64,000 nucleotides of DNA from Escherichia coli (GTDB lineage Bacteria > Pseudomonadota > Gammaproteobacteria > Enterobacterales > Enterobacteriaceae): the NCBI RefSeq assembly GCF_048403405.1, contig NZ_CP183129.1. The stretch is one strand, 5' to 3'. Shown here piece by piece: positions 18,001 through 21,000 of the stretch. Position numbers: made by a program. Position 1 is the first letter of the stretch, and every line of letters starts with the position of its first letter.

Positions 18001-21000
18001 GGCGACGATGACGCCGACAAACCATGAAACACGAGATAACGGTTCCATAAAGGGAATAAACTTACCGCCAAGAGATAAAATAACGGCGACCAAAGTTACT
18101 GAGAACGCGGTAAGGTTAAAGCCGTTATCGTAATATTTGAAATCCCCTGCTGCGGTATACAGTTCATCAAGATTAATTTGTCCGCGCATTACCACAAAAT
18201 AATGCGCCATCATGACACCAATTACCGGACCCAGCATTCCGCCAATAATATCGAGGAACAGATAAATACTGTCCTGATTTTCCATTAATTTCCACGGGCA
18301 GATCAGCAGGCTGATAATACTGGCAATCAGTACGCCGTTTTTATAGGTCAGTTTCGTCGGTGCAATAGCGGCAATCTGATAACCGGCCGGAATAATATTA
18401 CCGGTGGCGTTAGTGGAGATAGTTGTCATCAGAATAACCAGTACCGCAAAGAACGAGGCGAACAGGCTGTCCCAACGCTGAACAATATCCAGCACGTTCC
18501 AGGTATCAGCGCCGTAGTGAATACTGGCTCCGGCAATAATACATACCCCGGCGACCGCAAACAGAATATAGGCCACAACTAAACCCAGCGTTTGCCCCAG
18601 CGCTTGCTCACGAAACGAGTGGGCGTTTTGCGTAAAGTCGGATGCGCTCACCGCCGGTGCCGCCCAGACCGCAACTACCGCGTTAATCACCACCAGGAAC
18701 AGGAAGCCACTGTTTTCTGCTTTCTGAATACCGCTCGGAATGTAGTCAAAGATTGGACCGAGCCCGACCAGCGAAATCGCCCAAATCGCCATACCGCCGA
18801 AAACGATATAGATGCACGGGTTAAGAATGGCAGTGAATTTATTTAAAACTTTGCCACCGCCAAAACCTATACCAACGTTGACCAGCCAGAAGAGTAAGAA
18901 AGTAATTAAGCCCGGTAGAGAAAGGCCTAACAGAGTGAAATCATCACCGAGAGTTAAAAATCCCGGCCAGATTTTGCCAATCAGGATCAAGCAGGCCAGC
19001 GATCCAGCGTAACATTGCAGGCCAAACCACATAATGGCAGCAATCCCGCCTCTTAATAATCCGGGAAACAGTGCACCACGTACGCCGTAAGAAGCACGCA
19101 GGATCATGGCAAAAGGCACACCGTATTTACTGCCCGCAGCACCGTTTAATACCATTACCGCGGCAATGAAAAAGGCGCTGAGGATAATTGCCAGCATAAT
19201 ACTAAAGGTAGACAAGCCGAGAATAAAAAAGCCGCCGACCATCACATAATTGGGAACGTTATGAACCGAACCCATCCATAAGGTAAAATAGTTAAATGTT
19301 TTCCAGGTCCGCTGGCTTTGCGTTTTCGGCAATAGATCTTCGCTATAGCCGCGTTGCTGGAATAGTTTTCTCTGATGTTCCATAAATCCCTCTTAATTTC
19401 ACGTATCGAATAACGTCTTTTTAATCTAGCTATGAGGAACAAATAAAATAAAAATATTATTTTTAATACTGAAGCAACATCTTTGGCTGCTTTCTTTTTT
19501 TAATATTGCTGGCCGATTCATTTTCTGATATCGGCCATTTTTATTGCGGGTATCAGGCCAGTTTATGGTTAGCCATTAATTCCAGCGCCTGCACTAACGC
19601 AGAGTGATCCAACTGGCTGCCACCGTTTGCCGCACAGGTATTAAACAATTCCTGGCAGGTCGCGGTGTTTGGCAGGTTCAGCGCCAGTGCTTTCGCACTT
19701 TGCAGTGCCAGGTTGAGATCTTTCTGGTGCAGCGCAATTTTAAAACCTGGATTAAAGGTGCGTTTAATCATGCGCTCACCGTGAACTTCCAGAATACGTG
19801 AGGAAGCAAAGCCGCCCATCAGCGCCTGGCGCACACGTACCGGATCTGCACCGGCTTTTGAAGCAAACAGCAGGGCTTCAGAAACCGCTTCAATATTGAG
19901 CGCCACGATAATCTGATTTGCCACTTTGCAGGTTTGACCGTCGCCGTTACCGCCCACGAGGGTGATATTTTTACCGAGCAGTTCAAACAGCGGTTTAACA
20001 CGTTCAAATACCGCTTCGTCACCGCCAACCATAATCGACAACGTCCCTTCACGCGCGCCGATTTCACCGCCGGAGACGGGCGCATCGAGATAATCGCCGC
20101 CCAGTTCATTCACCTGACGAGCGAAACGCTTAGTTTCAATCGGGGAAATGGAGCTCATATCAACAATGGTTTTGCCCTTCAGCGAGGCTTTGGTACAACC
20201 ATTTTCACCGAACAGAACTTCTTCAACCTGTGGCGTATCCGGCACCATAATAAAAATGATGTCCGATGCTTCCGTTACCTGGCGCGCAGTTTCAACACTG
20301 ACGGCACCCAGTGACAGTAATTCATCAGCAACCGGACCAATGGTTGTGACATGCAGTTGATGACCGGCACGCGACAGATTAATGGCCATCGGTGTACCCA
20401 TAATGCCTAAGCCAATAAATCCCAGTTTCATAATTAACCTCTTTTAAATTTCGCTTTTCCTGAATTCAGACAACACGATCCCCTGCCAACTTAGCGGCCT
20501 AAAAAAGCATTGTCTGAATAGCGTTACGTTTTAACGGTACGGATCCATCCAGCGTAAACCGGCTTCCGTGGTGGTTTGGGGTTTATATTCACACCCAACC
20601 CAACCGTTGTAGTCAGAATTTTCGATTACCTTAAAGAGATAATCATAATTAATTTCTCCGGTCCCCGGTTCGCCGCGATGCGGATTATCGGCAATTTGCA
20701 GGTGACCAATTTTATCGGCCCATTGCGTCATAGTGTTGGTTAATTCACCTTCCATCCGCTGCATGTGATAAATGTCATACTGAATTTTCAAATTGCAGCA
20801 ACCAACATCATCAATCAATTTCAGCGCCTGCCGAGTTCCGGTGAGATGGAAACCAGGAATATCAAAATGGTTAATAGGTTCAATCAGTAATAAAATATCT
20901 TCTTTCATCAGCATATTCGCGGCATAACGCAGGTTTTCTACAAGCGTTGCGTGAATCTGTTCACTGCTGAAACCAGCCGGCGTTTTACCGACCAGACAGT

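What the first reader, a model, noticed from the sequence alone, without database searches (positions are those of the whole stretch)
19384..19552. Plus-strand terminator-like hairpin in the glxR-ybbW intergenic region
GGCCGAT-N12-ATCGGCC followed by ATTTTTATT is oriented for plus-strand transcription, but both flanking genes are on the minus strand. It could be an antisense transcript terminator, a protein-binding palindrome, or an attenuating structure within the gcl-hyi-glxR-ybbW-allB-ybbY-glxK operon that separates expression of upstream and downstream genes.
Basis: seen in the sequence. Interest (0 to 1): 0.2.

Follow-up and report, generated by a model that had tools for sequence, protein, structure and literature searches.

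The report
Antisense-facing terminator hairpin after glxR
Just behind the glxR gene of the E. coli allantoin/glyoxylate operon sits a real, evolutionarily maintained RNA hairpin that lets the operon's own transcription pass but looks built to stop transcription coming the opposite way; it is an ordinary kind of element in an unusual orientation, and no transcript data yet show what it does.

Summary
TGGCCGAT-N12-ATCGGCCA (window 19510-19537) lies 15 nt behind the glxR stop codon. TTTTTATT follows it on the + strand only, and both neighbouring genes (glxR, allW/ybbW) are on the - strand.

- **Real element:** it folds at about -14.5 kcal/mol. It is single-copy and almost invariant in 5,323 E. 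coli genomes. About 20 of 23 Enterobacterales loci have a stable hairpin at the same position, built from at least 8 unrelated stem sequences. That points to an RNA-level element, not a protein-binding palindrome, a REP repeat or chance.
- **Orientation:** on the operon (sense) strand it has no U-tract, so it is not a terminator there. On the + strand it scores like real terminators elsewhere in the window. The A-run before the hairpin on the sense strand recurs across hairpin families. Klebsiella, Raoultella and Rahnella instead carry sense or bidirectional terminators at this position.
- **Best reading (about 0.4):** a one-way boundary that lets gcl-to-glxK transcription through and stops antisense transcription from the AT-rich allW leader.
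- **Main rival (about 0.33):** a stem-loop that protects the 3' end of the gcl-hyi-glxR mRNA segment.

No + strand transcript is documented. The one Term-seq set I could read is silent across the whole cluster. Low to moderate interest; a new member of a known kind.

The parts
19510..19537 (.). Stem-loop TGGCCGAT/ATCGGCCA: 8 bp, plus an inner 3-bp stem (TCA/TGA), one bulged T (19529) and a 5-nt loop (19521-19525). It can form in RNA from either strand.
   Evidence: -14.5 and -15.4 kcal/mol. Single copy. The only common E. coli SNP seen is in the loop, in O157. A hairpin at the equivalent position exists in about 20 of 23 Enterobacterales loci.
19538..19545 (+). T-tract TTTTTATT directly 3' of the stem on the + strand. 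On the operon strand this is the A-run AATAAAAA 5' of the stem.
   Evidence: T-score 4.31 and d-score +8.7, similar to the ybcJ and glxK terminators in the same window. Invariant in MG1655, O157, the E69 lineage and E. whittamii while neighbouring bases vary. The A-run is enriched over local composition (P=0.028 here; combined about 1e-5 across families, assuming independence).
19553..20431 (-). glxR coding sequence. Its stop codon (19553-19555) lies 15 nt from the hairpin.
19471..19501 (+). Second, weak + strand hairpin (19471-19493, -5.6 kcal/mol) followed by C and T7 (19495-19501). It is homologous to sequence downstream of an inserted MFS transporter gene in Citrobacter FP75 and C. werkmanii.
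   Evidence: z -1.5, not significant alone; d -9.5.
19421..19450 (.). Best promoter-like site: + strand TTAATC-17-TAAAAT (-10 at 19444-19449), overlapping a - strand -10-like TATTTT (19450-19445). Predicted start sites are about 19456 (+) and 19438 (-), 18 bp apart. A prediction only.
   Evidence: 99.996th percentile of the window. An equal or better + strand site appears in 25% of shuffles of the 74% AT spacer. An 18-bp spacing is the commonest one at bidirectional promoters (PMC12825309).
19384..19442 (-). Conserved allW leader. Box A is GTTCCTCATAGCTAGAT (19424-19440), Box B is ACGTTATTCGATACGT (19401-19416) and the Shine-Dalgarno GAGGG is at 19388-19392. It is conserved upstream of allW in 8 genera whatever gene precedes it.
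   Evidence: No convincing consensus RNA structure.
17929..19383 (-). allW (ybbW) allantoin transporter gene, the next cistron in the operon.
   Evidence: PMC10163214.

Best explanation
The hairpin is the E. coli version of a maintained stem-loop that sits directly behind the glxR stop codon in Enterobacterales. In E. coli it has the build of a one-sided intrinsic terminator.

On the operon (window -) strand, A-rich sequence follows it with no U-tract. RNA polymerase coming from the gcl promoter therefore reads through into allW-allB-ybbY-glxK.

On the opposite (window +) strand the same stem is followed by UUUUUAUU. Any polymerase moving from the allW side would be released here, before it runs antisense into glxR-hyi-gcl. 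Such transcription could start at spurious or divergent promoters in the 74% AT allW leader, or come from inside allW.

Shown: the structure, the strand asymmetry of the U-tract, and conservation of the hairpin plus its A/T-run. Inferred: that + strand transcription exists, and that stopping it is what selection maintains.
For: Only the + strand has terminator features. T-score is 4.31 and d is +8.7, against 11.7 for the ybcJ terminator and 1.3 for the glxK terminator in the same window. The - strand scores d = -60.

The 3' arm plus ATTTTTATT is invariant in four Escherichia lineages while the flanks vary. The common O157 SNP is in the loop. 4,585 of 5,323 genomes are identical over 61 nt.

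The E69 lineage has gained a second hairpin next to it (GGCATCG...CGATGCC) that again has TTTTTAT on the + strand.

Unrelated hairpins at the same place in Citrobacter 18056/18061, Superficieibacter, RIT691, Buttiauxella and Atlantibacter all have an A-rich run 5' on the sense strand (6-7 of 9 nt) and a T-poor 3' tail. The A-run enrichment over local composition gives a combined P of about 1e-5, while the sense T-run gives P = 0.2.

Sense-type terminators (Raoultella, K. oxytoca, Rahnella, Budvicia) are 3-4.6 kcal/mol more stable on the sense strand through G.U pairs. The Escherichia-type hairpins are symmetric or slightly better on the antisense strand.

The AT-rich spacer upstream on the + strand holds promoter-like sites.
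Against: No + strand transcript, start site or 3' end is documented here. The Term-seq tables of Adams et al. list nothing between 533,862 and 553,873 on either strand. This is weak evidence, because even the certain glxK and allE terminators are absent from those tables.

The best + strand promoter-like site is matched in 25% of composition-preserving shuffles. It is not conserved in genera with short spacers such as Citrobacter 18061. A candidate antisense -10 inside allW shows no special conservation at synonymous sites.

The sense strand is A-rich on both sides of the hairpin. The stop codon also contributes A's in several species. Part of the T-run could therefore be a by-product of composition, and the families are not fully independent.

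Some orthologues carry sense-facing terminators, which shows the site also matters for the sense transcript.
Confidence: 0.4

Rival explanations
1. A sense-strand mRNA element. The hairpin forms in the gcl-hyi-glxR-allW... transcript. RNase E cleaves the AU-rich spacer downstream (or Rho terminates there), and the hairpin then blocks 3'-to-5' exonucleases. The gcl-hyi-glxR segment therefore outlasts the allW-allB-ybbY-glxK segment. This is selective RNA processing and stabilisation, an operon-internal decoupler. The + strand T-run is then a by-product of an A-rich leader.
For: The hairpin is slightly more stable as sense RNA (-15.4 kcal/mol, z -4.3). It sits 15 nt behind a stop codon in an mRNA that the literature treats as one transcription unit.

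A hairpin at this position is conserved. In Klebsiella, Raoultella, Rahnella, Citrobacter FP75 and Serratia H1w it is a sense or bidirectional terminator. The gap to the next gene there is too short for a promoter (about 54 nt in K. oxytoca), which implies partial termination inside the operon.

[quoted passage not shown] Intercistronic stem-loops combined with an RNase E site raise expression of the upstream gene (PMC10667835).

About 100 nt of AU-rich, weakly structured RNA follows the hairpin on the sense strand.
Against: This does not explain why the A-run hugs the hairpin in many families. Dar and Sorek report that protective hairpins of Rho-dependent ends lack such A-tracts. No mapped sense 3' end or Rho region lies here; the reported Rho region is at 535,744, at the gcl/hyi junction. 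No expression-ratio data could be examined.
Confidence: 0.33
2. A relic or neutral feature. The hairpin descends from a bidirectional terminator of the kind still seen in Klebsiella and Raoultella. Its sense U-tract was lost so that allW could be co-transcribed. The remaining antisense-facing half has no present function, and the T-run reflects A-rich composition.
For: K. oxytoca and Raoultella have a full bidirectional terminator at the same place (GAAAATGCTGCCGG...CCGGCAGCGTTTTT). About 1.5 hairpin-plus-T-tail hits are expected by chance per window, and four such hits lie inside coding sequence. The sense strand is A-rich on both flanks. No transcript is known to end here.
Against: Stems have turned over at least 5 times while keeping the position, a stability of -13 to -19 kcal/mol and the adjacent A-run. 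The element is near-invariant across 5,323 E. coli genomes, with its SNP in the loop. The E69 lineage has added a second module in the same orientation.
Confidence: 0.17
3. The terminator of a small cis-antisense RNA gene, analogous to GadY. An RNA of about 87 nt (or about 45 nt) would start near 19456 from TTAATC-17-TAAAAT and end at the hairpin. It would pair with the glxR-allW spacer of the operon mRNA to direct its processing.
For: A promoter-like site lies at 19421-19449. The predicted RNA folds into two hairpins, each followed by a U-run (-20.1 kcal/mol, z -3.5). The promoter hexamers are conserved within Escherichia.
Against: The promoter score is not above expectation for this composition. 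There is no Rfam match and no 3' end in Term-seq from LB or M63 medium. In Citrobacter 18061 and Superficieibacter the spacer is too short for such a gene, yet the antisense-facing hairpin is still present. The first hairpin is weak.
Confidence: 0.07
4. A DNA palindrome bound by a dimeric regulator such as AllR, AllS or RutR.
For: It is a perfect 8-bp inverted repeat in a regulated gene cluster.
Against: The sequence is not conserved in genera that keep the regulators and the gene order; only the structure is. There is no second copy in the window, including the gcl, allA/allS and allD control regions. The literature places the AllR and RutR sites upstream of gcl and between allS and allA.
Confidence: 0.03

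Closest known systems
Rho-independent (intrinsic) terminators, including bidirectional ones with an A-tract 5' and a U-tract 3' of the stem
   Same: A GC-rich 8-bp stem, extended by an inner stem, with a small loop and UUUUUAUU immediately 3' on the + strand. Its energy and T-score are in the range of real terminators in the same window. Orthologues in Klebsiella and Raoultella are full bidirectional terminators at the same position.
   Different: Only the half facing away from the known genes is intact. No gene or mapped transcript on the + strand ends here, and it lies inside a co-directional operon rather than at an operon end or between convergent genes.
Protective 3' stem-loops without U-tracts at Rho-dependent or processed mRNA ends (Dar and Sorek 2018, PMC6061677); intercistronic stem-loops of selective RNA processing and stabilisation (PMC10667835); REP stabilisers such as the one between malE and malF (from my own knowledge)
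   Same: A stable hairpin just 3' of an upstream cistron with no U-tract on the sense strand, followed by AU-rich RNA that could be cleaved by RNase E.
   Different: It has an upstream A-tract, which Dar and Sorek report as absent from that class. It is single-copy, not a REP element. No 3' end or stability data exist for this locus.
GadY, a cis-antisense sRNA encoded in the gadX-gadW intergenic region that directs processing of the bicistronic mRNA
   Same: Both involve an intergenic spacer inside an operon with a terminator facing against the operon. Here a short RNA complementary to the spacer is predicted.
   Different: No such RNA has been detected here. The promoter is not statistically supported and is not conserved outside Escherichia.

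Membership tests
Intrinsic terminator, window + strand | Stable GC-rich stem-loop (about 5-14 bp, small loop) | tested here: met
   8 bp plus 3 bp with a 5-nt loop, -14.5 kcal/mol, z -2.75.
Intrinsic terminator, window + strand | U-rich tract immediately 3' of the stem | tested here: met
   TTTTTATT at 19538-19545. T-score 4.31, d = +8.7, comparable to the ybcJ and glxK terminators (the d-score formula was recalled from memory).
Intrinsic terminator, window + strand | A transcription unit on the same strand that ends there (mapped RNA 3' end) | tested here: inconclusive
   No annotated + strand gene. No 3' end in the Term-seq tables, but the whole 20-kb cluster is silent there. The promoter-like site is not above composition.
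Intrinsic terminator, window - strand (operon sense) | U-rich tract immediately 3' of the stem | tested here: not met
   The tail is GCAATATTAAAA. T-score 0.35, d = -60.
Bidirectional intrinsic terminator | A-tract 5' and U-tract 3' of the same stem | tested here: not met
   The E. coli element has the A-tract only. The K. oxytoca and Raoultella orthologues have both.
Intercistronic stabilising or 3'-end-protecting stem-loop (SRPS; Rho-dependent ends) | Stable hairpin on the sense RNA just 3' of the upstream cistron, without a U-tract | tested here: met
   -15.4 kcal/mol, z -4.3, 15 nt after the glxR stop codon.
Intercistronic stabilising or 3'-end-protecting stem-loop (SRPS; Rho-dependent ends) | Sense RNA 3' ends at the hairpin base, and a longer half-life or higher level of the upstream segment | not testable with these tools
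   No expression or 3'-end data for inducing conditions were accessible. The locus is silent in LB and M63 Term-seq.
REP/BIME or other repeated extragenic palindromes | Many copies per genome sharing a consensus sequence | tested here: not met
   One place per genome (median 1, maximum 2) in 5,323 genomes, and unique in the window.
Transcription-factor operator palindrome | Half-site sequence conserved in species that keep the regulator, or recurring in co-regulated promoters | tested here: not met
   At least 8 unrelated stem sequences occupy the same position. No second copy in the window.
Known RNA families (Rfam 15) | A match at or above the family's gathering score | tested here: not met
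   The best hits (pan motif 21 bits against 36; trpB, RalA) are far below threshold.
cis-antisense sRNA (GadY-like) | Own promoter, discrete transcript, effect on the complementary mRNA | not testable with these tools
   Only a composition-level promoter prediction and a predicted fold are available.

The most novel reading that the evidence does not exclude
The antisense-facing terminator is maintained because a conserved antisense or divergent transcript really does arise from the allW leader. That transcript would be either an insulated by-product of an internal bidirectional allW promoter or a GadY-like cis-antisense RNA that controls processing of the glxR-allW junction. On this reading the strongly conserved 60-nt allW leader (Box A, Box B, Shine-Dalgarno) would be an undescribed cis-regulatory element of the allantoin transporter. 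The 'single' gcl-glxK operon would then have hidden internal regulation.
Probability: 0.12. Interest if true: 0.5.

Novelty: new member of a known kind. Interest (0 to 1): 0.22.

Why it matters
If the hairpin acts as proposed, the gcl-hyi-glxR-allW-allB-ybbY-glxK operon has an internal boundary. That boundary would either shield the glyoxylate genes from antisense transcription or uncouple their mRNA level from the allantoin uptake and hydrolysis genes. This would help explain how one operon serves two purposes: glyoxylate as a carbon source and allantoin as a nitrogen source. More generally, it would be a clean natural example of a one-directional terminator kept inside a co-directional operon. 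The practical weight is modest. The element type is well known, and nothing here overturns the current picture of the allantoin regulon.

Tried and rejected
- **Rfam** (E up to 10): only sub-threshold chance hits.
- **Built-in terminator and promoter scan:** missed the hairpin because of its loop limit and found no promoter in the spacer.
- **Repeat family (REP/MITE):** rejected, single copy.
- **Regulator palindrome:** rejected, sequence not conserved and not repeated.
- **Link to the nearby sRNA AllZ:** its reported partners are grcA, ftsZ and bssR, not this locus.
- **Antisense promoter inside allW** (ATGAAC-17-TAAAAT at 19261-19289): the TAT-TTT codons that create the -10 are present in only 17 of 26 orthologues, roughly as codon usage predicts.
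- **Internal allW promoter with its start at Box A:** -10-like hexamers occur at inconsistent distances, and Citrobacter 18061 has no room for a promoter.
- **Conserved RNA structure in the allW leader:** the RNAalifold consensus is -2 kcal/mol with no compensatory pairs. A manually noted TTGTTCC/GGAACAA pairing has only one possible compensatory change.
- **Box A or Box B elsewhere in the window or loci:** none.
- **Statistical support for the + strand promoter:** none beyond AT-richness.
- **Metagenome scan with a Box A pattern:** mostly chance matches; the 8 genuine loci were all Klebsiella or Raoultella type.
- **Literature:** every paper read treats gcl-glxK as one unit and none mentions this hairpin.
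- **Term-seq tables (Adams 2021):** no 3' ends anywhere in the cluster.
- **Other data sets:** the Cappable-seq TSS file was truncated. Supplements of four other data sets were not held or not relevant. Thomason 2015, Ju 2019 and Warman 2021 were not held.
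Full report
**Where we are.** The window is E. coli. A 351-nt stretch around the finding is 100% identical to strain 7/2 and is present in 5,332 of 5,426 complete genomes. The finding's span, 19384-19552, is exactly the spacer between glxR (19553-20431) and allW/ybbW (17929-19383). Both genes are on the window - strand, inside the cluster allS / allA-allR / gcl-hyi-glxR-allW-allB-ybbY-glxK. In MG1655 the spacer is 537,465-537,632, and the window + strand is the MG1655 minus strand.

GGCCGAT (19511-17) and ATCGGCC (19530-36) are perfect complements.
- T19510/A19537 adds an eighth pair.
- The 12-nt spacer contains an inner TCA/TGA stem around a 5-nt loop.
- TTTTTATT (19538-45) follows on the + strand.
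- The hairpin folds at -14.5 kcal/mol as + strand RNA and -15.4 as - strand RNA, better than almost all shuffles.
- On the - strand the 3' flank is GCAATATTAAAA, with no U-tract.
- With the d'Aubenton-Carafa score (formula from memory, modern energies), the + strand reading scores +8.7. The ybcJ (11.7) and glxK (1.3) terminators of the same window score similarly. The - strand reading scores -60.

**Is it more than chance?**
- Perfect 7-bp GC-rich hairpins are not enriched in the window. Hairpins with a T-rich tail are: 12 raw hits against 1.5+-1.6 in shuffles.
- Of the nine distinct hits, four are ordinary terminators at the ends of ybcJ, allE, glxK and allR. Four lie inside coding sequence and look like chance. 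This is the only intergenic one facing the 'wrong' way. The pattern alone therefore does not exclude chance.
- Comparative data do. In 23 Enterobacterales loci with glxR upstream of allW, about 20 have a stable hairpin (-13 to -22 kcal/mol) starting within roughly 30 nt of the glxR stop codon (mostly within 15). These are built from at least eight unrelated stem sequences.
- Within E. coli the 61 nt around the hairpin are identical in 4,585 of 5,323 genomes, and the rest differ at one base. In the O157 genome checked that base is a loop C-to-T change.
- In E. whittamii and the E69 lineage one stem pair is lost, but the inner stem gains a pair in a shifted register.
- The element is single-copy.
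- Conserved structure and position with a free sequence point to an RNA-level function. They rule out a regulator-binding palindrome and a REP-type repeat. Rfam has nothing here.

**Which strand does it serve?** Two lines of evidence point in different directions.

*Sense strand.*
- In Klebsiella and Raoultella the hairpin is a textbook bidirectional terminator (GAAAATGCTGCCGG...CCGGCAGCGTTTTT).
- In Rahnella, Citrobacter FP75/werkmanii and Serratia H1w it has a sense T-run.
- Several of these hairpins (Raoultella, K. oxytoca, Rahnella, and also Budvicia, which has no T-run on either side) are 3-4.6 kcal/mol more stable on the sense strand because of G.U pairs.
- In Klebsiella the next gene, an inserted MFS transporter, starts only about 54 nt after glxR. 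The terminator there must therefore be leaky and internal to the operon.
- So this site is a boundary on the sense transcript in part of the family.

*Antisense strand.*
- In Escherichia, Citrobacter 18056/18061, Superficieibacter, strain RIT691, Buttiauxella and Atlantibacter, allW directly follows glxR. There the hairpin has no sense U-tract but always has an A-rich run (6-7 of 9 nt) on its 5' side, which is a T-run on the antisense strand.
- Measured against local composition, this A-run is enriched in 8 of 12 hairpin families. The combined P is about 1e-5. This is optimistic, because the families are related and stop codons contribute A's. A sense-strand T-run is not enriched overall (P = 0.2).
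- In E. coli and Buttiauxella the A-run abuts the hairpin rather than the stop codon.
- ATTTTTATT is invariant in four Escherichia lineages while adjacent bases vary. The E69 lineage has acquired a second hairpin next to the first that again carries TTTTTAT on the + strand.
- The Escherichia-type stems are all Watson-Crick, or slightly better on the antisense strand.

**Is there anything to terminate?** This is the weak point.
- The spacer on the allW side is 74% AT.
- Its best + strand promoter-like site is TTAATC-17-TAAAAT, with the -10 at 19444-49. It ranks in the top 0.004% of the window.
- It overlaps a - strand -10-like hexamer, so the predicted divergent start sites are 18 bp apart. That is the commonest spacing at bidirectional promoters (PMC12825309).
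- The predicted 87-nt + strand RNA folds into two hairpins, each followed by a U-run.
- However, an equally good site appears in 25% of composition-preserving shuffles.
- The site is not conserved in genera with short spacers.
- A second candidate inside allW shows no synonymous-site conservation.
- The one transcript 3'-end resource I could query (Adams et al. 2021 Term-seq; LB and M63 glucose) lists no 3' end on either strand between 533,862 (the allR terminator) and 553,873. Even the certain glxK and allE terminators are missing there. This shows there is no abundant constitutive RNA ending here, but it says nothing about inducing conditions.
- All papers read treat gcl-glxK as one transcription unit under AllR (and RutR) control from the gcl promoter, and none mentions this element.

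**Most likely mechanism.** The best fit to the sequence evidence is a one-way boundary.
- The stem-loop lets operon transcription through because it has no sense U-tract.
- It is a competent intrinsic terminator for polymerases arriving on the + strand from the AT-rich allW leader or from within allW. That would keep antisense transcription out of glxR-hyi-gcl. Confidence is about 0.4.
- The main rival (about 0.33) is compatible with it. In the sense mRNA the hairpin would act as a 3'-to-5' exonuclease barrier after RNase E cleavage or Rho termination in the AU-rich spacer. That would stabilise the gcl-hyi-glxR segment relative to allW-glxK. This mechanism is documented for U-less hairpins (PMC6061677; PMC10667835). 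Its weakness is the hairpin-adjacent A-run, which that class reportedly lacks.
- A neutral relic of a bidirectional terminator (about 0.17), a GadY-like antisense sRNA gene (about 0.07) and a protein-binding site (about 0.03) rank lower.

**Comparison with known kinds.** On the + strand the element meets the two sequence criteria of an intrinsic terminator. It fails, or cannot yet be tested for, the third: a transcript that ends there. On the - strand it fails the U-tract criterion. It is neither a REP element nor an Rfam family. I therefore file it as a new member of a known kind, either an orientation-specific intrinsic terminator or an intercistronic stem-loop. It is not a new mechanism.

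**Side observation.** The 60 nt just upstream of the allW start codon are strongly conserved in eight genera, regardless of which gene lies upstream.
- The block comprises Box A (GTTCCnCATAGCTAAAC), Box B (ACGTnATCCGATACGT) and the Shine-Dalgarno sequence.
- It occurs only there.
- It has no convincing consensus RNA fold.
- It may be an operator or leader element of the allantoin transporter and deserves its own look.

**Verdict.** The interest score is 0.22.

Noticed in passing
window 19384-19442 (- strand); L005-L018, L032, L033 about 2945-3000: A strongly conserved leader of about 60 nt lies directly upstream of allW: Box A GTTCCnCATAGCTAAAC, Box B ACGTnATCCGATACGT and the Shine-Dalgarno sequence. 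It is present in Escherichia, Citrobacter, Klebsiella, Raoultella, Buttiauxella, Izhakiella, Atlantibacter and Superficieibacter, whatever gene lies upstream. It was found only at allW. The Box A start TTGTTCC is the reverse complement of GGAACAA at the start codon. It could be an operator or a leader element; there is no convincing consensus RNA fold.
   Followed up: partly
window 19471-19501 (+ strand): A second, weak hairpin (AAGCAACATCTTTGGCTGCTT, -5.6 kcal/mol) followed by C and T7 also faces the + strand. It is homologous to sequence downstream of an inserted MFS transporter gene in Citrobacter FP75 and C. werkmanii. The E. coli spacer therefore looks like a glxR-proximal hairpin joined to a remnant of an MFS-allW spacer.
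   Followed up: partly
L003 about 2800-2840 (E. coli E69 lineage), aligned in A4: This lineage has an extra 29-nt insertion right after the glxR stop codon. It forms another hairpin (GGCATCG-N15-CGATGCC) followed by TTTTTATCA on the antisense strand, a tandem copy of the same architecture.
   Followed up: partly
L032 1665-2921; also L005, L006, L011, L012: Klebsiella, Raoultella and some Citrobacter carry a 418-aa MFS-type transporter gene between glxR and allW. It starts about 54 nt after a bidirectional terminator, which implies leaky termination inside the operon.
   Followed up: partly
L084 (E. coli XH993), equivalent to window about 19507: An IS1 element is inserted immediately next to the hairpin on the allW side. 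The hairpin and T-tract are left intact, but allW is separated from glxR.
   Followed up: no
MG1655 535,744 (+), the gcl/hyi junction; about window 21270: Adams et al. 2021 list a bicyclomycin-sensitive (Rho) termination region at the gcl-hyi junction and another antisense to allC (544,905 +). The cluster is otherwise devoid of mapped 3' ends in LB and M63.
   Followed up: no
window about 10750-11800 (allD), from the annotation of NZ_CP023820.1: In the best-matching strain (7/2) allD is annotated as a pseudogene with an internal stop. I did not check whether the window carries the same stop.
   Followed up: no
window 23161-23178 (- strand): The canonical terminator of allR (CCCGCTCTGCGGAGCGGG plus T7) is also the 3' end of the annotated sRNA AllZ. 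It gives the only Term-seq 3' end mapped in this cluster (533,861/2 +).
   Followed up: partly
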